From the NCBI GenBank assembly GCA_021849745.1, contig JAJZSN010000001.1, forward strand, positions 14,727 through 38,726: 24,000 bases of DNA, read 5' to 3'. The stretch comes from Bacillota bacterium (GTDB lineage Bacteria > Bacillota > GCA-003054495 > Carboxydocellales > JAJZSN01). Positions 2,565-23,138 of this stretch are shown piece by piece (position 1 is the stretch's first letter; every line of letters starts with the position of its first letter). Below the pieces are notes generated by a model. The model saw nothing but the letters and a program-made list of their open reading frames with translations. It was not told the DNA's origin and did not search any database. Both the position numbers and the translations under genes were made by a program.

Positions 2565-3848
2565 ATGACTGTTATAGAAGTGAAAAATGTATGGAAAAAG
2601 TTCCGTTTATATCATGAAAAGAGGCCGTCTTTGAAAGAAATAATTCTTTTCAAAGGAAGAGGCAAGTGGGAAGATTTTTGGGTCTTAAAAGATATTAACC
2701 TAAAAATAGAAAAAGGGACTACTGTAGGTTTGATTGGCCAGAACGGATCAGGGAAAAGCACTCTGCTTAAGCTTCTAACCAACATTATTTACCCTGATAA
2801 AGGACAATTGAATATTAAAGGACGAGTATCAAGCCTCTTAGAACTCGGGGCCGGATTTCACCCAGATTTTACCGGCAGGGAGAATATTTATTATAATTCT
2901 TCAGTTTTTGGCCTTACGAAAAAAGAGATTGATAAAAGGGTTGATGAAATAATAGAGTTTTCTGAGTTAGAAGAGTTTATTGACAATCCAGTACGCAGTT
3001 ATTCTTCAGGGATGTATATGAGATTGGCTTTTGCTACGGCCATTAATGTTGATCCGGATATTCTTCTAATCGACGAAGTATTGGCGGTGGGGGATGCAAA
3101 CTTTCAAAAAAAATGTTTAAGGAAAATCAATGAATTCAGAAAACAGGGTAAAACTATTGTTTTTGTCTCCCATGATCATAATGTTGTAGCAAAACTATGT
3201 AATTATGCAGTATGGTTGGACCAAGGTGAAATAAAAGCCTCTGGGGGTTCAAAAGGTGTTATAGATTCGTATTTAGCGCACATGGCTGAACAGGAAGAAA
3301 TACGACTAGCTGGTGAACATAAGCAAAGAGAAGAGAATGATGTTATAGGTGAAGTTGTAGATAACGAGCGAGTTGCCCGTACAAAGGAAGAAGTAAACTC
3401 CGAACAAGAATCTCAAGGACAATCACCGAATCGGTGGGGCACTCGCGAAATAGAAATAACAGACGTTAAACTTCTTGACGGGAAAAGCATAGAACGTCAT
3501 GTTTTTGACTCAGGCGAACATGTTACTATACAAATTAGATATAAAGTTAATAAGGGTTTTGGTAATCCCGTATTTGGTATTGGAATTTTCCGAGATGACG
3601 GTATTTGTTGTTATGGCACGAATACAGAAATTGATAATTTATTGATAAAAGATTTAAAAGACCAAGGTGCTGTCTTGTTCAAAGTTGACTTAAATTTAAC
3701 AGAGGGACATTTTTTACTAAACGTAGCAGTGCATGATGAGGACGGGTACATGTATGATTACCAATCTTCCAGGTATTCTTTTGTTGTAAACTCCAAGCTA
3801 AGTGAAGTGGGAATTTGTAAGTTACCTCATCAATGGATAATTAGCTAA
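2565..3848 (+). CDS. wzt: Polysaccharide ABC exporter ATP-binding protein with extra C-terminal domain (Wzt/TagH-like)
   Basis: Walker A GQNGSGKST, signature YSSGMYMRLAFA, Walker B ILLIDEVLAVGD, H-loop VSHD. An acidic linker is followed by a ~140-aa C-terminal domain (GTREIEITDVKLLDG...HVTIQIRYKV...FGIGIFRDDG...) of the kind seen in Wzt carbohydrate-binding domains. The preferred start is ATG 2565 (MTVIEVKNV..., GGAGG 4 nt upstream) rather than the track start at 2529. Confidence 0.85.
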   Translation: MTVIEVKNVWKKFRLYHEKRPSLKEIILFKGRGKWEDFWVLKDINLKIEKGTTVGLIGQNGSGKSTLLKLLTNIIYPDKGQLNIKGRVSSLLELGAGFHPDFTGRENIYYNSSVFGLTKKEIDKRVDEIIEFSELEEFIDNPVRSYSSGMYMRLAFATAINVDPDILLIDEVLAVGDANFQKKCLRKINEFRKQGKTIVFVSHDHNVVAKLCNYAVWLDQGEIKASGGSKGVIDSYLAHMAEQEEIRLAGEHKQREENDVIGEVVDNERVARTKEEVNSEQESQGQSPNRWGTREIEITDVKLLDGKSIERHVFDSGEHVTIQIRYKVNKGFGNPVFGIGIFRDDGICCYGTNTEIDNLLIKDLKDQGAVLFKVDLNLTEGHFLLNVAVHDEDGYMYDYQSSRYSFVVNSKLSEVGICKLPHQWIIS

Positions 3849-3859
3849 TAGAGGGGAAG

Positions 3860-5011
3860 TTGCAGGACATGAGAGAAGATAACAGATACGGTATTGATCC
3901 CAGTAAATTGATGCTTAACATCATAAACAATGTAAAAGGTTTGAATAATGTGTCCAGCAATTTACCCGTTTCCGAAGAAGACAATCCGGATTTATTGGCA
4001 AATCAATGGGACAAATATTCTCAGCTCAAATCAATTATACCAATTACTGCAAGTGCGTATTTAACTGAACCACCACTTAGTTCTAGGTTTAAAATTTTGG
4101 GCCGTTTTATAGTTACTTTAAGAAAGTTTGGAGCTCGATTGTTTGCAAAGTGGTATACAGGTCCTGTTTTTGACCAGCAATCAAGGTTAAATATTTCCCT
4201 GATTAAAAGCATTGAAATGATAAATTCTGTTTTGGAAGACCAAATGAAAATCAATTCGGCACTCGTTATGACAAAAAACAATTATCAAACGGAGCTTCAA
4301 TGTTTAAAAAATAACATTCAAAGTGAACTTAACGAAACTAAATACACTATAGAGTTAGTCAACTTCCCTGTATTTCCCTATCAAAAATTTAACGAGAAAT
4401 TTGGTGGTCTCGCAGAAAAACATAAAGAAATATATAATTCATATTTTCAGTATCTTAGAGGATGTAGCAATGTTTTAGATATTGGGTGCGGGAGGGGCGT
4501 GTTTTTAGAGCATTTGAAAGAGAGTGGTATAAATGGTTACGGAATTGATTCTGATAAGAAATTGGTAGAATGGTGTAAGGGAAAAGAACTACAGGTTATT
4601 CAAGATGATGCGATAAACCATTTGAAAAGTTTAAATATAGGAGAAATCGATGGGATTTATGCTGGACATATTATAGAACATTTACCGTTAGGTTTAAAAC
4701 AGTTACTCCTTGAACTTTGTTATGAGAAACTGGCGAGCGGAGGGCATTTAATTATTCAAACGCCTAATACTATATCTCCTTATGTTCTTCACAATTTATA
4801 TTATCTTGACCCCACACATCAAGCACCGCTACATCCGGAAACATATAAATTATTGGCTGAAAATGCCGGTTTCACGGTGATTGATTCCTATCTAAGTGAA
4901 AAGATAACGGATGATTTATTGAAAATTTGGAATCCAGGTTATATCGAACCTGAGGGGCAAGAGATAGACCAAGCCTCTTTTTACAACTTTACATTGATAG
5001 TAAAAAAATAA
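3860..5011 (+). CDS. Class I SAM-dependent methyltransferase with ~190-aa non-catalytic N-terminal region
   Basis: C-terminal half: motif I VLDIGCGRGVFLEHL, then IDGIYAGHIIEHL and GGHLIIQTPN. The N-terminal half has no motif I recognise and contains a helical, heptad-like stretch (LEDQMKINSALVMTKNNYQTELQCLKNNIQSELNETK). The start is ambiguous: TTG 3860 or ATG 3869, both downstream of GAGGGGAAG. Confidence 0.75.
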   Translation: MQDMREDNRYGIDPSKLMLNIINNVKGLNNVSSNLPVSEEDNPDLLANQWDKYSQLKSIIPITASAYLTEPPLSSRFKILGRFIVTLRKFGARLFAKWYTGPVFDQQSRLNISLIKSIEMINSVLEDQMKINSALVMTKNNYQTELQCLKNNIQSELNETKYTIELVNFPVFPYQKFNEKFGGLAEKHKEIYNSYFQYLRGCSNVLDIGCGRGVFLEHLKESGINGYGIDSDKKLVEWCKGKELQVIQDDAINHLKSLNIGEIDGIYAGHIIEHLPLGLKQLLLELCYEKLASGGHLIIQTPNTISPYVLHNLYYLDPTHQAPLHPETYKLLAENAGFTVIDSYLSEKITDDLLKIWNPGYIEPEGQEIDQASFYNFTLIVKK

Positions 5012-5028: not shown

Positions 5029-6213
5029 ATGAAAATAGGTATCGTAACTCCATGGTTTGGTGAAAAGGTTGCAGGTGGTGCGGAAAGATATGCCGGTGGT
5101 TTAGCAAGGGCCTTTAGTAATTTAAATTTGCAAGTAGAAGTTATTACCACTTGCGGTGAAGATTCTTTTAGTGGATGGGATCATAATTACTATAAAGAAG
5201 GTGTTTGCGAAGAAAGCGGTATTATTGTAAGGCGTTTTGGATTAAGAAAAAGGAATAGGGCTGTATATGATAAATGTTTCGGTAGTTTAATTCAACATAA
5301 AAATATATCTTATGTCGAAGAGTTGCAATTGCAACATGAAACAATAAACAGTGATTCCATGTATAAGTTTATTCAAGAAAATTGCTCGGACTATGTCTTT
5401 TTGTTTATTCCTTATTATTACGGTACCTTTGTTTGGGGTGCTCAAATTGTACCTAAAAGAAGTTTCTTAATTCCATGCCTGCATGATGAAGAAATCGCTT
5501 ATTTTAAATTGATGCGGGATGTTTTTACACAATCTTGTGGATGCATTTTTAATACCGAAGAAGAAAGGGAACTAGCGAAAAAAATTTATGATTTGGATGA
5601 GGAGTTTGGAGTAGTTACTGGAGTAGGGGTCGAGCTTGATTATGTAGGCGAAGCCGAAGCGTTTAGGAGAAAATATGGGATTAAAGATACGTATATACTT
5701 TATGTAGGACGCAAGGTGGATGGTAAGAATGTCCCAATGTTAATTAGTTTGTTTAAGACTTTGAAACATAATGATCCAGATAATTCTATTAAACTGGTTT
5801 TAATAGGAAAAGGAGAAATTTCAGACAATTTAAAACATCCTGATGTTATTGACTTGGGCGAACTCGACGAAAAGGAAAAGTTGGATGGAATTGCGGGAGC
5901 TTTAGTTTTATGTCAACCATCTGTGATGGAGAGTTTTTCTTTAGTGATAATGGAAGCGTGGTTGTCAGGCGTTCCCGTGTTAGTAAATAGTGAAAGCAAT
6001 ATAACAGTGAGTCATGTTAAAAAAAGTCAGGGTGGGCTGACTTTTAACTGTTACCAAACCTTTGTAGATGCAATTACACAATTTATTAATAGCCCCGAAA
6101 GCAGAACAAAAATGGCTGAAAAAGGGCACCAATATGTAACACAAAACTATAACTGGCAAACTGTGACTAGTAAAATATTGAAACTAATCCGTAGTAGAGG
6201 GTTCAATATTTAG
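5029..6213 (+). CDS. Glycosyltransferase family 4-like
   Basis: The N-terminus MKIGIVTPWFGEKVAGGAERYAGGLARAF is typical of GT4. The C-terminal 'MESFSLVIMEAWLSGVPVLVN' is an E-x7-E motif. SD AAGGTGA lies 4 nt upstream of the ATG. Confidence 0.8.
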   Translation: MKIGIVTPWFGEKVAGGAERYAGGLARAFSNLNLQVEVITTCGEDSFSGWDHNYYKEGVCEESGIIVRRFGLRKRNRAVYDKCFGSLIQHKNISYVEELQLQHETINSDSMYKFIQENCSDYVFLFIPYYYGTFVWGAQIVPKRSFLIPCLHDEEIAYFKLMRDVFTQSCGCIFNTEEERELAKKIYDLDEEFGVVTGVGVELDYVGEAEAFRRKYGIKDTYILYVGRKVDGKNVPMLISLFKTLKHNDPDNSIKLVLIGKGEISDNLKHPDVIDLGELDEKEKLDGIAGALVLCQPSVMESFSLVIMEAWLSGVPVLVNSESNITVSHVKKSQGGLTFNCYQTFVDAITQFINSPESRTKMAEKGHQYVTQNYNWQTVTSKILKLIRSRGFNI

Positions 6214-6222
6214 GAGGAAATC

Positions 6223-8604
6223 ATGAATATTATAATAGATGTGCAAACCCTTTATACTGACGAAAAAGCAAGAGGAATTGGAATATTTACCGCAAATTGG
6301 CTGAACGGCATTAGGGATAATAATGATTACAACATTCATTTCATGAGGATTAATAATAATAAATGGGAATTTATTGCAAATGATAGTGCTGAATCATTGC
6401 AAAATATTTTATACGGCAGCCTAGGCAAATGGAAAATTGTTGACACCATTACACAATTCTGCTTTGATAATGACATAGATCTTATGATTTTTACTAGCCC
6501 TCTTATGCCAAATATACAATTGCCCTTAGAGGAATTACCGTGTAAAAAGGGTTATATTGTTTACGATTTAATACCCCTTGTATTACCGGATAAATATGTT
6601 AATAATTGGCCGATTCAAATTAAAGAAGATTACTATACCAAATTAAATATTATAAATAAGGGCGATTTAATATTAACAATATCCAATGCAACCAAAAACG
6701 ACTTAATGAATCATTTATCAATACCTAGTGAGAAGATTTTTGTTATATATTTATCAATAAAAGATTTTTTCAGACCTATTGATAAAAAGAAAGCAAAAGG
6801 AGAGTTAGAAAAAAGCAGAGGGCTAACATCACCCTTTATTTTTTCCATAACAGGTTATGACCCTAGAAAAAATAACAAAGGTCTAATTAAAGCCTTAAGT
6901 TTGCTATCAAAAGAATTTCAAGATTTAAAACTGGTCATTTTGGGAATAAAGAAGCCAAACGATGAAGAGTTTATGCAATATGCAAGGAGCCTTAATGTAA
7001 ATGACAAAATAGTCTTTTTAGACTATGTGTCAGATGAAATGCTCGTAACTATCTATAATGCATGTGATATTTTCGTTTTTCCTTCGGAATATGAAGGATT
7101 TGGTATTCCTATTTTAGAAGCATTTAAGACCGGTGCACCAGTTATAACCTCAAATGTATCGTCTATGCCTGAAATTGCAGCTGATGGGGCGGCATTGCTG
7201 GTGGACCCCAGCAAAACTGAACAAATTGCAGAAGCCATCCAAAAAATCTTGACCGATGACTCTTTAAGAAATAGTTTAATTGAAAGAGGTTTTAAACGAA
7301 GTAATAATTTTTCGTGGAGAAATGTGAAAAAGGAGACATTAATCGCCTTTGATTTTATAAAAAATAAAAATTGTTTGTTAGAAATATGTGAAAAGCCCAA
7401 ACTTGCTTTTTTCAGTCCATTAAACCCTCAACAATCGGGGATTTCTGATTACAGTGAAGAACTCCTGCCTTACTTATCAAAGTATTTTGAAATTCATTTA
7501 TTTGTAAGTGGTTTTGTACCTTCGAACACCTTTATTAAAAACAACTATCCAATTCATGATTTTTCCGATAAGACAACTTTGAAAATCTTAGATGATTTCC
7601 CTTTACGTTTATATCAAATAGGGAATAATGAATTACATTATCCTATCTATGAAGCATTAAAGCAATATCCAGGAATAATTGTATTACATGATTACAATTT
7701 GTTCGGTTTTTTTCTTCATTTAACCCATCTACGTAATAAATCAAGTGAATTTATCGAAGAAATGGAATATGCTCACGATAAAGAAGGGAGGATAGCAGCT
7801 GAAAAAATTATACATGAAGGTATTTTTCCAGATGTTATGTCGTTTCCAATAAATAAGAGAATGGTTGATTGCAGTAAAGGCGTAATAGTTCACAGTGAAT
7901 GGTCAAAAAAAGAATTATTGAAAAACATTAATTGTAAAATGCCTATTATAAAAATACCGCAGGCTGTTCCTTTACAAAAACTTCCTACAATATCAGATAA
8001 GAAAAGAATTAAATCCAGTTTAAATCTTTCTGAAGTAGATTTTATTATAGGCGTGTTTGGAAATGTAACCTGGAACAAAAGGCTACATGCTATAATTAAT
8101 AGCTTTTGTAGGTTATTACAAACGCATCCAAATTCAAAATTAATTATTATTGGTAATTGTTCGAAAGATATGCATACGGAGTTAAATATTCTAATTAAAC
8201 AAAATAAAGTTGATAATAATGTTAGGGTAACGGGTGGAATTGATTTTGATACGTTTAATGATTACATTAAAATATCTGATATTTGTATAAATCTGAGGTG
8301 GCCAACTATGGGTGAAACATCTGCCACTCTTCTACGTGCAATATCTTTCGGAATTCCCTCAATTGTATCAAATGTCGGTTCATATAAAGAATATCCGGAT
8401 GACTTTTGTTGGAAAGTCGATCCGGATGAATATGAAGAAGATATTCTGCTAGCATATCTTTTTCATATGGCTAGTAACCAAGCTTTACGTGAAGTGATGG
8501 GACAATATGCTCATAGCTATGCAAAACGAGAACTTAGTCTTGCTGAAGCTGCAGAAAAGTATGCTAGGGCTTTGTATTACAGCTATAAAAATTTTGCGAG
8601 GTGA
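6223..8604 (+). CDS. Bi-modular glycosyltransferase (two GT-B/GT4-like modules fused)
   Basis: 793 aa. Module 1 (aa 1 to ~380) has 'FPSEYEGFGIPILEAFKTGAPVITSNVSSMPEI'. Module 2 (aa ~395-793) has 'RWPTMGETSATLLRAISFGIPSIVSNVGSYKEY'. AGGAGG lies 6 nt upstream of the ATG. Confidence 0.75.
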   Translation: MNIIIDVQTLYTDEKARGIGIFTANWLNGIRDNNDYNIHFMRINNNKWEFIANDSAESLQNILYGSLGKWKIVDTITQFCFDNDIDLMIFTSPLMPNIQLPLEELPCKKGYIVYDLIPLVLPDKYVNNWPIQIKEDYYTKLNIINKGDLILTISNATKNDLMNHLSIPSEKIFVIYLSIKDFFRPIDKKKAKGELEKSRGLTSPFIFSITGYDPRKNNKGLIKALSLLSKEFQDLKLVILGIKKPNDEEFMQYARSLNVNDKIVFLDYVSDEMLVTIYNACDIFVFPSEYEGFGIPILEAFKTGAPVITSNVSSMPEIAADGAALLVDPSKTEQIAEAIQKILTDDSLRNSLIERGFKRSNNFSWRNVKKETLIAFDFIKNKNCLLEICEKPKLAFFSPLNPQQSGISDYSEELLPYLSKYFEIHLFVSGFVPSNTFIKNNYPIHDFSDKTTLKILDDFPLRLYQIGNNELHYPIYEALKQYPGIIVLHDYNLFGFFLHLTHLRNKSSEFIEEMEYAHDKEGRIAAEKIIHEGIFPDVMSFPINKRMVDCSKGVIVHSEWSKKELLKNINCKMPIIKIPQAVPLQKLPTISDKKRIKSSLNLSEVDFIIGVFGNVTWNKRLHAIINSFCRLLQTHPNSKLIIIGNCSKDMHTELNILIKQNKVDNNVRVTGGIDFDTFNDYIKISDICINLRWPTMGETSATLLRAISFGIPSIVSNVGSYKEYPDDFCWKVDPDEYEEDILLAYLFHMASNQALREVMGQYAHSYAKRELSLAEAAEKYARALYYSYKNFAR

Positions 8605-11265: not shown

Positions 11266-11411
11266 TTCCAATAGAAAAGTATAATTAAATTGAAGATAAC
11301 ATAGTTTAGAAAAGGATTGTTGAGGATCGGAAATGGTTCCCGACACGCTATCGAAAGATAGTTAACAGGTATGCTGGATACACCGCCCAGCCAACAATCC
11401 AACCTTATTTG

Positions 11412-20486: not shown

Positions 20487-20526
20487 GGGGTGCCGTAAGG
20501 GTACCTGATACCCCTACGGTCACCCC
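20487..20526 (-). other. Strong imperfect stem-loop in the rpsB-tsf spacer
   Basis: GGGGTGCCGTAAGGGTA (20487-20503) pairs with TACCCCTACGGTCACCCC (20509-20526), with one bulge and one mismatch. No T-tract follows on the - strand. Confidence 0.5.
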
Positions 20527-20532
20527 AAGTAA

Positions 20533-21231: not shown

Positions 21232-21345
21232 TCGAACTATACCTCCTTTAGTTTTGTGCCTCCGCACGTGTCATTTTTCGGTAAGACCTGTTGCCAGGCA
21301 CTCTCACAGAAATCCACGGCGTGTGTATTTTTCACACCAAGTGAC

Positions 21346-21374
21346 ATTATAGCATAAGAGGAAAGGATATGCAA
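21346..21374 (-). promoter_or_regulatory. SigA-type promoter of rpsB (TTGCAT-17-TGcTATAAT)
   Basis: On the - strand, TTGCAT lies at 21374-21369 and TATAAT at 21351-21346, separated by a 17-nt spacer. TGC precedes the -10 box (extended -10). It sits ~110 nt upstream of the rpsB ATG. Confidence 0.6.
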
Positions 21375-21380
21375 GGGGGA

Positions 21381-21553
21381 ATTAGCTGGTAGCTGGTAGT
21401 TCTTAGTTCGTAGTTCATAGTTCATAGTTGTTAATTTATGTCCGTCTTGAGGGTCTGTATTAGCTAAGTCATTTAGCTAAAAAGTTAGCATACCTAAAAA
21501 ACTATGAACTACGAACTATGAACTATGAACTAAAACATGAACTATGAACTATG
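21381..21553. repeat. Tandem-heptamer inverted array I: (NNTAGYT)x8, a 63-nt spacer, then (AACTAYG-type)x5+2
   Basis: Left block 21381-21436: attagct ggtagct ggtagtt cttagtt cgtagtt catagtt catagtt gttaatt. Right block 21500-21534: aactatg aactacg aactatg aactatg aactaaa. A 5-nt phase break (acatg) follows, then aactatg aactatg at 21540-21553. The two blocks are reverse complements. The spacer holds two copies of the palindrome TTAGCTAA (21460-21467 and 21473-21480). Confidence 0.9.
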
Positions 21554-22079
21554 AACCATTGCCCCTTCGGGTCAATACCCTGATCAACTCCTCTAAGGGC
21601 ATTTCTTTTTGTAATTGGTATGTTCCTATGCGGAACTTGGAGGCGGCTTTTTTCTTGTCCACAAGGGCCAAGAATTCTTCTTTGTTGGTGATAACCCCGG
21701 CTTTTAGTAAAATTTCGGCTATCTCGATGGATGCTGAGCCGGAGGGGATGGTGATGGTAACCGGTGCAGCTTGGGGTGGAGTTACAGGTTTGGTTTCTCC
21801 GGTTGCCAGTGTCTTTGGCGGTTGAGGTGATTGAAGGTTAGGTTGAGGATCTTGATTTTCTTTTTTTTCTTTGACCAGAGCTTGATAAACGGCTTTCTCA
21901 ACCTGTTGGGCAGCTTCTTCCTTGGTTATCATACCCAATTGTGCGGCTTGGGTTAGGATTTCTTGTTGGGTTAATCCGGGGCGGCCCGGAGGCCAACCGA
22001 TAATAAGCAAGCTGGCAATAATTAATCCTACGCCCAATCCCCTTAAAAAGCTAGTATTGAGAATAAATCGCCATTCCAC
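21549..22079 (-). CDS. Membrane-anchored protein with Pro-rich linker and YceG/MltG-N-terminal-like (LysM-like) domain; no catalytic domain
   Basis: N-terminal TM segment (GLGVGLIIASLLIIGW), a PQP-rich linker, and the C-terminal 'VTITIPSGSASIEIAEILLKAGVITNKEEFLALV...FRIGTYQLQKEMPLEELIRVL', which resembles the N-terminal domain of MltG/YceG. GTG start 6 nt after AGAGGTGA. The stop TAG lies inside the heptamer array. Confidence 0.6.
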   Translation of the reverse strand: MEWRFILNTSFLRGLGVGLIIASLLIIGWPPGRPGLTQQEILTQAAQLGMITKEEAAQQVEKAVYQALVKEKKENQDPQPNLQSPQPPKTLATGETKPVTPPQAAPVTITIPSGSASIEIAEILLKAGVITNKEEFLALVDKKKAASKFRIGTYQLQKEMPLEELIRVLTRRGNGS

Positions 22080-22081
22080 TT

Positions 22082-22687
22082 TTAATCACCTCTACTCCGT
22101 AAGCCCAAGATTAATTCTACCTCGCCCTGGCCCATTTGCAGGAGACGGGCAATCTCATTGACGGAACGGCCCTCTCGGGCCAAGCTGTGAATTGTTGCCT
22201 GACGCCCTGTGGACTCTTTTTCTTCAAGGCTAAACCCCTCATCCGTGGCAGTTGACTGGACTTTTCTTGGCCGGTTAATGTTCTTCGAACCGTTGGGTTT
22301 CTTGGCCCTGGAGCTTTGTTTGATAATAGAAAGTTCTTCTTTAACCTTTTCTGGTTTAATGTTGGACAGCCCTTGATAAGACTCTTGTTTAGAAACACTG
22401 CTTCCTGAACTAACATTACTTGTTAAATTGAGGGCTTGTAGTTCTTTAATCTTTGCCTCCATAGACTGAACCACCGTTTCCGATGCCCGTTCCAACTCCA
22501 CCAATAAAGAAGCTACATCTTCTCTGGCGGTTATAACAGATCGCTTCAACTCAGTGATGCGCTGTTCTTCTATGGCCCACCCCCGCTCAACCATGGGGTT
22601 GGTTACTTTTTCTTTAAACCTCGGATGTTCCATAAGAAAACCCAGGGCAACCAAAATCACCCCGGCGAAGAAGAGAAAGTACTCCAT
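22082..22687 (-). CDS. Membrane-anchored coiled-coil protein with C-terminal helix-turn-helix
   Basis: N-terminal TM segment (YFLFFAGVILVALGFLM), a helical region (ELKRSVITAREDVASLLVELERASETVVQSMEAKIKELQAL), and a C-terminal 'SLAREGRSVNEIARLLQMGQGEVELILGL' HTH-like motif. The preferred start is ATG 22685-22687 (AAGGGA 8 nt upstream); the track start is 22696. Confidence 0.55.
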   Translation of the reverse strand: MEYFLFFAGVILVALGFLMEHPRFKEKVTNPMVERGWAIEEQRITELKRSVITAREDVASLLVELERASETVVQSMEAKIKELQALNLTSNVSSGSSVSKQESYQGLSNIKPEKVKEELSIIKQSSRAKKPNGSKNINRPRKVQSTATDEGFSLEEKESTGRQATIHSLAREGRSVNEIARLLQMGQGEVELILGLRSRGD

Positions 22688-22702
22688 GCAGGTCATCCCT
22701 TT

Positions 22703-22816
22703 CGTAGCTTGTAGCTTGTAGCTAGTAGCTTATAGCTTAATAGTATTTCTATAAGGTTAATTTCTCTTAAGAATTTCTTTCAAGCTACAAGCTATCAGCT
22801 ATCAGCTACAAGCTTC
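22703..22816. repeat. Tandem-heptamer inverted array II: (NGTAGCT)x5, a 37-nt spacer, then (AAGCTAY/CAGCTAY)x5
   Basis: Left block 22703-22744: cgtagct tgtagct tgtagct agtagct tatagct taatagt. Right block 22782-22816: aagctac aagctat cagctat cagctac aagcttc. By my alignment, 28 of 35 positions are complementary between 22704-22738 and 22782-22816. The spacer contains the palindrome TCTTAAGA. Confidence 0.9.
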
Positions 22817-23138
22817 ACACCTTAATATCCAAAATCTTCCCCAGCTTGGGGTCTTTTAATTCCTTAGCCTGTTCATTTTCCTGGTCTTTGGATTGCCGTT
22901 GTTCGGGAGTTCGGTCACCTTGGTCGTTGGGTTGTTTGGATTGGTCTTTGGTAATCCGGGTACCTACAGATTTGGGACTGTTCTGAACCTGTTGCTGTAT
23001 TTGCTGGGATTCTTTTTGCAGTTGGGTGGCGAACTGTTGCTGTTGATTATGCTCTCCCTGGTTTTTGGCCTGTTGTATTTTACTGACTTCCTGAACCTTA
23101 GGCATTAAGACCTGCAAGTCTACAGGGCGAATGGTCAC
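22815..23138 (-). CDS. Hypothetical Gln/Lys/Asp-rich low-complexity protein
   Basis: 107 aa. GTG start preceded by GGTGGTGAAGGA. There is a short ordered N-terminus (MTIRPVDLQVLMPKVQEVSKIQQ) followed by Q-rich repeats. It is positionally coupled to the upstream FapA-like gene (19-nt gap). Confidence 0.5.
   Translation of the reverse strand: MTIRPVDLQVLMPKVQEVSKIQQAKNQGEHNQQQQFATQLQKESQQIQQQVQNSPKSVGTRITKDQSKQPNDQGDRTPEQRQSKDQENEQAKELKDPKLGKILDIKV

What the first reader, a model, noticed from the sequence alone, without database searches (positions are those of the whole stretch)
22703..22816. Tandem-heptamer inverted array II inside the small-gene cluster, with the same architecture and a sister unit
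A second element lies 1.2 kb away and has the same design: 5-6 units of NGTAGCT, an AT-rich spacer with an 8-bp palindrome (TCTTAAGA), then 5 inverted units. By my alignment, 28 of 35 positions are complementary.

Again it begins exactly at the stop codon of the upstream gene (TGA 22815-22817). It ends 6 nt (track start 22696) to 15 nt (ATG 22687) before the start of the next gene.

The core (TAGCT) is the same as in the first two units of array I, which suggests one evolving family rather than coincidence. Variation among units (gtagctt, gtagcta, atagctt) looks like slippage plus drift.
Basis: seen in the sequence. Interest (0 to 1): 0.7.

Follow-up and report, generated by a model that had tools for sequence, protein, structure and literature searches.

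The report
Inverted tandem-heptamer hairpin between flagellar genes
This is a real 115-base hairpin-forming element made of 7-base repeats that fills the gap between two genes of a flagellar operon; it belongs to the widespread, still unexplained class of bacterial intergenic heptamer repeats, and close relatives do without it.

Summary
Window 22704-22738 and 22781-22814 are two arrays of five 7-nt units. They are inverted, 29/35 complementary, and separated by a 42-nt AT-rich spacer. The element runs from the stop codon of a 107-aa gene to 3 nt before the ribosome-binding site of a DUF6115 gene.

All genes here are on the minus strand: the end of a Firmicute fla/che operon, followed by rpsB-tsf. 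The sense RNA folds into a roughly 40-bp hairpin (-55 kcal/mol, z = -8).

It is one of at least four such arrays in this operon. Related Thermincolia-like genomes carry arrays at the same junctions, but with different unit counts, different unit families, or nothing. Two near-identical strain pairs differ by presence or absence. Relatives at 54-58% FapA or 72% FlhG identity have none.

It matches no Rfam family and lacks the U-tract of an intrinsic terminator. The spacers share no conserved core.

TAGCTNN and TAGTTCR arrays with the same inverted design occur in many phyla. They sit pressed against gene stop codons.

Tandem heptamers are already known as the commonest intergenic periodic repeat in prokaryotes, and inverted pairs are described in Xanthomonas.

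Verdict: a new member of a known kind. It is most likely a slippage-driven, dispensable repeat hairpin with at most a modulatory effect on the mRNA.

The parts
22781..22814 (-). 5' arm in the transcript sense. It has five heptamers: AGCTTGT AGCTGAT AGCTGAT AGCTTGT AGCTTGA, that is TAGCTNN units with a TAG in every unit. It starts directly after the stop codon.
   Evidence: Tandem Repeats Finder, inverted-repeat search, sequence.
22739..22780 (-). AT-rich spacer, which forms the hairpin loop region. It is 42 nt and 19% G+C, with the 8-bp palindrome TCTTAAGA at 22765-22772. It has no conserved counterpart in other copies.
   Evidence: the k-mer comparison of spacers found only scattered 9-mers shared between copies.
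22704..22738 (-). 3' arm in the transcript sense. It has five complementary heptamers: AAGCTAT AAGCTAC TAGCTAC AAGCTAC AAGCTAC. The paired stem ends at about 22706, leaving AC before the Shine-Dalgarno-like GAAAGGG.
22815..22817 (-). TGA stop codon of the upstream 107-aa gene (22815-23138; no Pfam match). The first paired base of the hairpin is the next nucleotide.
22685..22703 (-). Translation start region of the downstream DUF6115 gene (22082-22687). GAAAGGG lies at 22697-22703, followed by 9 nt and then ATG at 22687. This region is left unpaired by the large hairpin.
   Evidence: The conserved counterpart GAAAGGAAGAC..ATG is present in L122, L124 and L125.
21383..21556 (-). Array I, the sister element. 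It is an inverted pair of TAGTTCR heptamers, with two outer TAGCTGG units, around a spacer of about 70 nt. It lies between the stop of the YceG-like gene (TAG at 21549-21551, inside the array) and the rpsB promoter.
   Evidence: (fold -71.9 kcal/mol, z = -7.6).

Best explanation
Array II is one copy of a lineage-specific family of intergenic tandem-heptamer repeats arranged as an inverted pair. The units are TAGCTNN here and TAGTTCR in array I.

Shown:
- It lies in the untranslated gap between two co-directional cistrons at the distal end of a Firmicute fla/che operon.
- It spans exactly from the upstream stop codon to 3 nt before the downstream ribosome-binding site.
- On either strand it can fold into an imperfect stem of about 40 bp.
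- Copies at orthologous junctions gain and lose units, switch unit family, or are missing altogether in very close relatives.
- The same architecture, with unrelated spacers, occurs in many phyla, pressed against gene stop codons.

Inferred:
- The arrays grow and shrink by replication slippage of the 7-nt unit.
- The arms stay complementary either through template switching within the quasi-palindrome or because only self-pairing insertions are tolerated.
- When the operon is transcribed, the element folds on itself and loops out about 109 nt. The stop codon then sits about 18 nt from the next AUG, compared with 23 nt in the array-free relative, so expression of the downstream gene is hardly disturbed.
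- Any effect is therefore modulatory rather than required. The stem could block 3'-5' exonucleases, serve as an RNase III substrate, or slow RNA polymerase. That would tune the relative amounts of the mRNA segments on either side.

The TAG in every unit gives a stop in all three frames. This lets such an array sit directly on a gene end without extending the protein.
For: Anatomy and folding:
- Anatomy.
- Stable fold with a single dominant register, retained at 55-65 C.

Family and operon context:
- Four arrays in 13 kb of the same operon.
- Gene context is flhF-flhG-pilZ-cheBAWCD-fliA-fapA-107aa-DUF6115-YceG-like-rpsB-tsf.

Orthologous junctions:
- L122 has a TAGCT inverted pair at the same junction.
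- L124 has different heptamers at the same junction, and a full TAGCT pair at fliA/fapA where the source genome has only 3 direct units.
- L129 has further TAGTTCA and TAGCT arrays at flhB/flhA, flhG/pilZ and fliA/fapA.

Turnover:
- L125 has an empty site (TAA + 23 nt + ATG).
- L131 is empty although its FlhG protein is identical to that of L129.
- L126, L127 and L132 are empty at every orthologous junction their contigs cover.

Strand:
- No consistent sense-versus-antisense folding bias.

Cross-phylum data:
- 119 or more genome loci and 120 or more metagenome loci carry the same units.
- 56 inverted pairs have a median spacer of 53 nt, and the spacers are unrelated.
- In 74 of 111 cases the incoming gene ends within 10 nt of the TAG-sense array.
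- The 92 adjoining ORFs hit 90 different Pfam families, so they are real genes with no functional theme.

Literature:
- Heptamers are the most abundant intergenic periodic repeat and have no known function (PMC6344855).
- Xanthomonas has 70-75 convergent heptamer pairs per genome, with position conserved and length variable between species (PMC4692102).
- Slippage has been proposed as the origin (Mrazek 2007, as summarised in PMC4679880).
Against: - No transcript or structure-probing data exist for this uncultured organism. RNA-level folding and any effect on mRNA are inference.
- Arrays are concentrated in the fla/che-rpsB region. They are absent from about 30 kb of neighbouring genes in the same genome. 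A purely neutral slippage model does not predict this.
- Copies of the TAGTTCA element at different junctions share nearly identical arm ends (GGTTCATAGTTC...GAACTACGAACC). Contigs break inside them. This hints at dispersal of a defined element rather than independent growth in place.
- The strong preference for the TAG arm to come first (23:2) is not fully explained. The complement of TAGTTCA also carries a stop codon (TGA).
Confidence: 0.55

Rival explanations
1. It is a selected cis-regulatory RNA hairpin of the flagellar operon. An intercistronic stem-loop would set the ratio of upstream to downstream gene products by selective RNA processing and stabilisation, by RNase III cleavage, or by partial U-tract-independent termination. 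Unit number would tune its strength.
For: - The hairpin is very stable.
- Its placement runs exactly from the stop codon to the Shine-Dalgarno sequence.
- Arrays recur at the same junctions in three related genomes while the arm sequence changes and pairing is kept.
- Arrays cluster in the fla/che operon and are absent from the neighbouring 30 kb.
- Intercistronic stem-loops control operon stoichiometry in another Clostridium-class organism (PMC10311766).
Against: - The element is absent in very close relatives whose flanking proteins are identical or nearly so (L125, L131).
- It is absent in all more distant relatives examined.
- At fliA/fapA the source genome has only a 3-unit direct array with no partner.
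- There is no sense-strand folding bias and no excess of G-U pairs on the sense strand.
- There is no U-tract.
Confidence: 0.2
2. It is a small non-autonomous mobile element, like a REPIN or MITE. A hairpin-forming doublet would be copied to new intergenic sites by a trans-acting enzyme, and the heptamer periodicity would be a property of the element's arms.
For: - The same arm sequences occur at non-orthologous junctions. TAGTTCA pairs lie at yceG/rpsB in L001 and L122, at rpsB/tsf in L124, and at flhB/flhA and flhG/pilZ in L129.
- The arm ends are defined: GGTTC...GAACC.
- The filled versus empty site in L122 versus L125 is clean, and the filled copy is flanked by TAATA on both sides.
- Short-read contigs end inside the arrays, as expected for multi-copy repeats.
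- REPINs are likewise inverted doublets around a spacer in extragenic space (PMC3116915).
Against: - The spacers share no conserved core.
- Arm lengths and unit variants differ at every copy.
- Direct-only arrays exist.
- At flhG/pilZ the difference between L129 and L131 is a replacement, not a simple insertion.
- The ancestral flhG end TTTAGCTAA already contains a proto-unit from which (TAGCTTG)n could grow in place.
- No transposase was seen in about 75 kb of the lineage.
Confidence: 0.15
3. It is a protein-binding array. The periodic UAG (or TAG) every 7 nt would be read by an oligomeric RNA- or DNA-binding protein, in the way TRAP reads spaced UAG/GAG triplets. The complementary arm would act as an anti-site that masks it.
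For: - TAG is the element common to nearly all unit families of the lineage: TAGCTNN, TAGTTCR, TAGGTNN, TAGTAAG.
- Direct-only arrays exist in the sense orientation.
- MacGregor proposed binding of heptamer repeats by S1, Csp or CsrA-like proteins for TAACTGA repeats (PMC4679880).
Against: - No candidate protein has been identified.
- Presence or absence at strain level argues against a wired regulon.
- The same units occur in very different phyla, with no shared gene context among the 92 adjoining genes tested.
- TRAP-type spacing is 2-3 nt, not 4 (from general knowledge).
Confidence: 0.05
4. It is a contingency locus. Slippage-driven changes in unit number would switch or grade the expression of motility genes between cells.
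For: - Flagella are classic targets of phase variation, and simple repeats are its usual mechanism (PMC11868660).
- Unit numbers differ between close relatives.
Against: - The arrays are intergenic, so unit changes cannot shift a reading frame.
- They do not lie between the -35 and -10 elements of a promoter.
- There is no within-sample length heterogeneity data. The two assemblies of the source genome are identical over the array.
Confidence: 0.05

Closest known systems
Xanthomonas GGGAATC intergenic heptamer repeats, including convergent (inverted) pairs (Rehm et al. 2015, PMC4692102)
   Same: - Tandem 7-nt units in intergenic regions.
- There are 70-75 cases per genome of two arrays on opposite strands close together that could form a stem-loop or cruciform.
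- The position is kept between related species while the length varies.
- Whether a site holds a single array or an inverted pair is usually preserved.
- The function is unknown.
   Different: - The Xanthomonas units are G-rich and form G-quadruplexes. TAGCTNN and TAGTTCR cannot.
- Different phylum: Gammaproteobacteria rather than a Thermincolia-like Firmicute.
- Here the pair lies between co-directional cistrons inside an operon and abuts a stop codon.
Prokaryotic long simple-sequence repeats of period 7 (Mrazek et al. 2007 as summarised in PMC4679880; Mori et al. 2019, PMC6344855); cyanobacterial STRR heptanucleotides (Mazel et al. 1990, cited in PMC4692102)
   Same: - Period 7 and intergenic location.
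- Sporadic, lineage-specific abundance.
- Rapid change in length.
- Polymerase slippage is the proposed origin.
   Different: Those surveys describe direct arrays. They do not report the inverted-pair hairpin design, the abutment to stop codons, or the rule that the TAG arm comes first.
TAACTGA direct repeats of marine Beggiatoaceae, Cyanobacteria and Bacteroidetes (MacGregor 2015, PMC4679880)
   Same: - A heptamer that carries stop codons, repeated 2-6 times in intergenic regions.
- It is found in ribosomal-protein operons among other places.
- The same unit is scattered over distant phyla.
   Different: - TAACTGA repeats lie mostly just upstream of start codons, overlapping the ribosome-binding site.
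- Nearly all are direct: one inverted set among 170.
- Here the arrays start at stop codons and are paired.
REP/BIME elements and REPINs (Bertels and Rainey 2011, PMC3116915)
   Same: - Extragenic hairpin-forming inverted doublets around a spacer.
- Across phyla the heptamer arrays favour convergent over divergent gene pairs, 49 against 13.
- Individual copies are dispensable.
   Different: - REP arms are a conserved unit of about 20-25 nt, not a tandem heptamer array.
- REPINs number in the hundreds and come with a RAYT transposase. Neither was shown here.
Intercistronic stem-loops for selective RNA processing and stabilisation, for example the cip-cel operon of Ruminiclostridium cellulolyticum (PMC10311766)
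   Same: A stable stem-loop in the gap between cistrons of a long operon in a Clostridia-class organism. This is the mechanism that array II would most plausibly work like if it has an effect.
   Different: Those stem-loops are unique sequences with demonstrated processing. They are not repeat arrays, and no processing data exist here.

Membership tests
Intergenic tandem-heptamer repeats (period-7 long simple-sequence repeats) | Head-to-tail copies of a 7-nt unit, more of them than chance allows | tested here: met
   Tandem Repeats Finder gives period 7, 5.0 and 4.9 copies. The pattern gives 13 hits against 0.00 expected.
Intergenic tandem-heptamer repeats (period-7 long simple-sequence repeats) | Non-coding location | tested here: met
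   The element lies between the stop codon at 22815-22817 and the start at 22687.
Intergenic tandem-heptamer repeats (period-7 long simple-sequence repeats) | Unit number differs between related genomes | tested here: met
   The orthologous junction has 5+5 units in L001, 4+5 in L122, 0 in L125, and other units in L124.
Xanthomonas-type convergent heptamer pairs | Two arrays of the same unit on opposite strands in close proximity | tested here: met
   Arms of 45 nt at 80% complementarity with 19-42 nt between them.
Xanthomonas-type convergent heptamer pairs | G-rich unit able to form a G-quadruplex | tested here: not met
   The units GTAGCTT and CAAGCTA have no G-tracts.
Rho-independent (intrinsic) terminator | G+C-rich stem followed by a U-tract | tested here: not met
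   The terminator scan reports no site at the element. The 3' arm is followed by ACGAAAGGG. Across phyla only 1 of 56 such pairs is followed by a T-run.
REP / REPIN | Conserved REP unit of about 20-25 nt shared by all copies | tested here: not met
   The arms are heptamer arrays that differ in unit and length at every copy.
REP / REPIN | Hundreds of copies per genome and a RAYT transposase gene | not testable with these tools
   Only about 45 kb of the source genome could be read (window, L001, L128).
MITE | Terminal inverted repeats around a conserved core, with target-site duplication | tested here: inconclusive
   There is no conserved core. One filled/empty pair shows TAATA on both sides of the filled site, which could equally be part of the palindrome.
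Any curated RNA family (Rfam 15) | Match at or above the family's gathering score | tested here: not met
   No match at the element at gathering thresholds. With E <= 1, only sub-threshold long-hairpin matches appear, on array I, and none on array II.

The most novel reading that the evidence does not exclude
TAG-bearing heptamer arrays, single or as inverted pairs with the TAG arm first, could be a general and functionally constrained 3'-end element of bacterial genes. They would be read in the sense of the incoming gene, by the terminating ribosome or by an RNA-binding factor, rather than being passive slippage products. The copies in the flagellar operon would then be working intercistronic signals. 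The evidence does not exclude this:
- Over many phyla, the incoming gene ends a median 2 nt before the array.
- Inverted partners lie 3' of the TAG arm 23:2.
- Convergent gene contexts outnumber divergent ones 49:13.
- The same units recur next to rpsB, tsf and pyrH in unrelated organisms.
Probability: 0.12. Interest if true: 0.8.

Novelty: new member of a known kind. Interest (0 to 1): 0.4.

Why it matters

This locus offers a compact test system. Several arrays sit at defined junctions of one operon. Natural filled and empty alleles exist in near-identical strains.

The cross-phylum regularities seen here turn the question of whether these repeats are passive or functional into something testable by genome census and by transcript-end mapping. 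The regularities are abutment to stop codons, the TAG arm coming first, a spacer of about 50 nt, and the lack of a U-tract.

For annotation, the practical points are these:
- Such arrays can supply the stop codon of a gene.
- They break short-read assemblies.
- They should not be called terminators or small RNAs.

Tried and rejected
- Intrinsic terminator: rejected, because there is no U-tract.
- Known RNA family: none found.
- Promoter in the spacer: the sigma-70 scan found nothing in the element. No sigma-28-like CGATA box was seen by eye.
- Strand of action from G-U pairs and sense-versus-antisense energies: no consistent bias over 10 sites, so RNA-level and DNA-level action could not be separated.
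- Conserved spacer core, as a MITE test: only scattered 9-mers were shared, and the cross-phylum spacers are unrelated.
- Classical covariation analysis or a covariance model: not attempted. Orthologous arms cannot be aligned unit by unit.
- Search of JGI metagenomes for DUF6115 relatives: 302 pattern matches, none confirmed.
- Exact-protein look-up with the 204-aa start: not on record. The 201-aa start is the recorded one.
- General link between these arrays and flagellar genes across phyla: rejected. The 92 adjoining genes hit 90 different Pfam families, and tblastn with 23 operon proteins hit only a few loci.
- Enrichment of stop-bearing units among other heptamer arrays: 83/106 against a 49% null. 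This is only a rough indication, because the null assumes uniform base composition.

Full report
**1. The observation**

On the plus strand the window reads GTAGCTT GTAGCTT GTAGCTA GTAGCTT ATAGCTT at 22704-22738. A 42-nt spacer follows at 22739-22780. Then come CAAGCTA CAAGCTA TCAGCTA TCAGCTA CAAGCT at 22781-22814.
- Tandem Repeats Finder calls both arrays with period 7 and about 5 copies each.
- The inverted-repeat search pairs them as 45-nt arms at 80% complementarity.
- The best register of the 35-nt arms is 29/35 complementary.
- The spacer is 19% G+C in a 41% G+C window and contains TCTTAAGA.
- A degenerate three-unit pattern hits 13 times in the window, only in this element and in array I, against none in 100 shuffles.
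- The sequence is identical in an independent ENA assembly.

**2. Context**

All genes of this part of the window are on the minus strand. From upstream to downstream they are:
- FapA (23158 onward)
- a 107-aa protein without a Pfam match (22815-23138)
- a DUF6115 protein (22082-22687)
- a short YceG-like protein (21549-22079)
- rpsB, tsf, pyrH, frr and further housekeeping genes

The ENA contig L001 extends the view upstream: flhF, flhG, pilZ, cheB, cheA, cheW, cheC, cheD, a small gene, fliA, fapA. This is the distal end of a Firmicute-type fla/che operon running into the rpsB cluster. The source is annotated 'Clostridia bacterium', and its nearest named relatives are 'Thermincolia bacterium' MAGs.

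In the transcript sense the element reads UGA | (AGCUUGU AGCUGAU AGCUGAU AGCUUGU AGCUUGA) spacer (AAGCUAU AAGCUAC UAGCUAC AAGCUAC AAGCUAC) GAAAGGG-9 nt-AUG.
- The stop codon is the nucleotide triplet immediately before the first paired base.
- The stem closes two nucleotides (AC) before the Shine-Dalgarno-like GAAAGGG.
- The predicted fold is -55.1 kcal/mol against -28.4 for shuffles (z = -8.1).
- It has one dominant register and persists at 55 and 65 C, at -35.5 and -24.8 kcal/mol.

**3. A family within the operon**

Array I (21383-21556) has the same design, with TAGTTCR units and two outer TAGCTGG units.

Beyond the window, L001 carries two more arrays:
- (TAGCTTG)6 ... (AAGCTAT)5 between flhG and pilZ
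- a direct TAGCTGG TAGCTCG TAGCTTA at the fliA stop codon, followed directly by the fapA ribosome-binding site

In every case the array begins at, or contains, the stop codon of the upstream gene.

No array occurs in window 1-20500 or in a further 10 kb of the same genome (L128).

**4. Related genomes**

Syntenic loci were obtained for five relatives.

*The junction of array II (107-aa gene / DUF6115 gene)*
- The Thermincolia MAG (L122; DUF6115 60% identical) has TAA TAGCTGG TAGTTTG TAGCTTA TAGCTTG, a 13-nt spacer, then CAGCTAT CAGCTAC AAGCTAT GAGCTAA CAGCTAA.
- The JGI contig L124 (FapA 77% identical) has other heptamers there: AGGGGTT-type units and (AGTAGTA)6, closed by a complementary CCCCTAACACC.
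- A close relative of L122 (L125) has only TAA + 23 nt + ATG.
- L126 and L127 (FapA 58% and 54% identical) have short array-free gaps.

*The other junctions behave in the same way*
- fliA/fapA has three direct units in L001 and L129, but a full inverted pair in L124.
- flhG/pilZ has an inverted TAGCT pair in L001, TAGGTNN/ACTACTT in L124, and a direct (TAGTTCA)5 in L129. It is empty in L131, whose FlhG protein is identical to that of L129, and empty in L132, L126 and L127.
- The TAGTTCA pair lies at yceG/rpsB in L001, L122 and L125, but at rpsB/tsf in L124. A further one lies at flhB/flhA in L129.

The ancestral flhG end is TTTAGCTAA, which already contains a TAGCTAA proto-unit.

Short-read contigs start or end inside the arrays (L123, L125, L130).

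The arrays are therefore confined to a shallow clade. They are semi-conserved in position, labile in content, and individually dispensable.

**5. What it is not**
- The Rfam scans found nothing at the element.
- The terminator scan found no site there, and no U-tract follows the stem.
- The spacers of the copies share no core.
- Folding energies of the sense and antisense strands over ten sites show no consistent bias. RNA-level and DNA-level pairing therefore cannot be told apart from sequence.

**6. The wider class**

They come from Acidobacteriota, Cyanobacteriota, Bacteroidota, Gemmatimonadota, Bacillota and others. A metagenome scan for three TAGTTCR units likewise stopped at 120 loci, with G+C from 0.32 to 0.69.

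*Design of the pairs*
- 56 inverted pairs of the same design were found.
- Their median spacer is 53 nt and the spacers are unrelated.
- Only 1 of the 56 is followed by a T-run.
- The complementary arm lies 3' of the TAG arm 23:2 in the TAGTT set and about 27:8 in the TAGCT set.

*Position relative to genes, read in the TAG sense*
- The incoming same-strand gene ends a median 2 nt before the array, and 74 of 111 end within 10 nt.
- A convergent gene on the far side ends a median 51 nt away.
- Convergent contexts outnumber divergent ones 49:13.
- The 92 ORFs that end at an array hit 90 different Pfam families. They are real genes, and no function predominates.

*Ribosomal and translation-factor clusters*
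- Similar arrays occur next to rpsB, tsf or pyrH in unrelated organisms (L232, L207, L077).
- That is about 4 of 240 loci, where I estimate roughly 0.3-0.5 by chance.

The scans were seeded with these units. Nothing can therefore be said about their frequency relative to other heptamers.

**7. Literature**
- Heptanucleotide repeats are the most abundant class of long simple-sequence repeats in prokaryotes, and slippage has been proposed as their source (Mrazek 2007, as summarised in PMC4679880).
- A survey of 7006 genomes found tandem heptamers to be the most abundant intergenic periodic repeat, with no clue to function (PMC6344855).
- Xanthomonas carries 70-75 convergent pairs of GGGAATC arrays per genome. 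Between species their position is conserved and their length varies (PMC4692102).
- TAACTGA repeats in Beggiatoaceae, Cyanobacteria and Bacteroidetes also carry stop codons, and some lie in ribosomal-protein operons (PMC4679880).
- REPINs are hairpin doublets of a different kind (PMC3116915).
- Intercistronic stem-loops control operon stoichiometry in Ruminiclostridium (PMC10311766).

**8. Interpretation**

The element is a member of the known class of intergenic heptamer repeats, in the inverted-pair form. It has new unit types and sits in a new lineage and context.

The best-supported account is a slippage-driven repeat that is tolerated where it folds back on itself. With the stem formed, the stop codon lies about 18 nt from the next AUG, against 23 nt in the array-free allele. 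A unit that carries TAG stops translation in all three frames, so such an array can sit on a gene end.

Any effect on the operon mRNA is plausible but unproven. The stem could act as an exonuclease barrier, an RNase III site or a polymerase roadblock. The natural empty alleles show that no such effect is required.

Three observations keep the rival explanations alive: a selected intercistronic signal, or a dispersed mobile hairpin.
- The arrays cluster in the fla/che-rpsB region.
- The TAGTTCA copies have near-identical arm ends.
- The TAG arm almost always comes first.

**9. Verdict**

The feature is real. Its suggestion of a regulatory role is not supported as a requirement. Novelty: a new member of a known kind. 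Interest is moderate, mainly because the locus and the cross-phylum regularities offer a handle on an old unexplained repeat class.

Noticed in passing
window 11315-11399 (+): A full-length match to the skipping-rope RNA (Rfam RF02924): 60.9 bits against a gathering score of 36.7. It lies in a roughly 1-kb gene-poor stretch.
   Followed up: no
window about 21270-21375 (minus strand); L001 11313-11460, L122 2265-2417, L124 11145-11290, L126 13238-13376: Directly after array I lies a sigma-70-type promoter for rpsB: TTGCAT, 17 nt, TATAAT (window 21369-21374 and 21346-21351). It is followed by a leader conserved in four genomes (GGTGTGAAAAATACACACGCCGTGGATTTCTGTGAGAGTGCC...). This may be a ribosomal protein S2 leader. 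It matches no Rfam family.
   Followed up: partly
window about 20488-20528 (minus strand); L001 12160-12200: A G+C-rich hairpin (GGGGTGACCGTAGGGGTATCAGGTACCCTTACGGCACCCC) lies between rpsB and tsf. It is conserved in L001, L122, L124 and L126. Its function is unknown.
   Followed up: no
L001 1073-1192 and 7824-7844 (same genome, upstream of the window): There are two more members of the family. One is a (TAGCTTG)6 / (AAGCTAT)5 inverted pair between flhG and pilZ. The other is a 3-unit direct TAGCT array whose first TAG is the fliA stop codon.
   Followed up: yes
L125 1-100 vs L122 920-1045; L131 1017-1095 vs L129 10915-11030: Natural filled and empty alleles occur in near-identical strains. 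The junction of array II is array-free in L125. The flhG/pilZ junction is array-free in L131 although its FlhG protein is identical to that of L129.
   Followed up: yes
L123 end, L125 end, L130 both ends: Short-read contigs of the Thermincolia-like organisms start or stop inside TAGTTCA arrays. This suggests that these arrays are multi-copy and break assemblies.
   Followed up: partly
L232 170-300; L207 2084-2140; L077 (reverse complement) 2790-2820, 3290-3325, 4318-4352: Unrelated organisms carry heptamer arrays in the same housekeeping cluster.
- L232 has an inverted TAGTTCA pair directly upstream of rpsB.
- L207 has a TAGTTCA mini-pair between pyrH and frr.
- An acidobacterial locus (L077) has AGCTAGN arrays before rpsI and rpsB, and (GGTCGCT)4 right after the rpsB stop.
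   Followed up: partly
L124 11074-11135: At yceG/rpsB this relative has a short hairpin with remnant GGGTTCT units followed by TTTTTT. That is a canonical-looking terminator at the place where the source genome has array I without a U-tract.
   Followed up: no
L001 1196-1206, L124 about 7786-7796, L129 about 6718-6728, L131 about 1052-1062: A motif YAAGAATAC (AAGGAATAC in L131) recurs beside or inside arrays at three different junctions. It is also present at an array-free site. Its meaning is unknown.
   Followed up: no
L063 (reverse complement) 5946-5980: An (AAGCTAA)5 array lies inside the reading frame of a trmD-like gene of an uncultured bacterium. It would encode a short repeated peptide near the C-terminus.
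   Followed up: no
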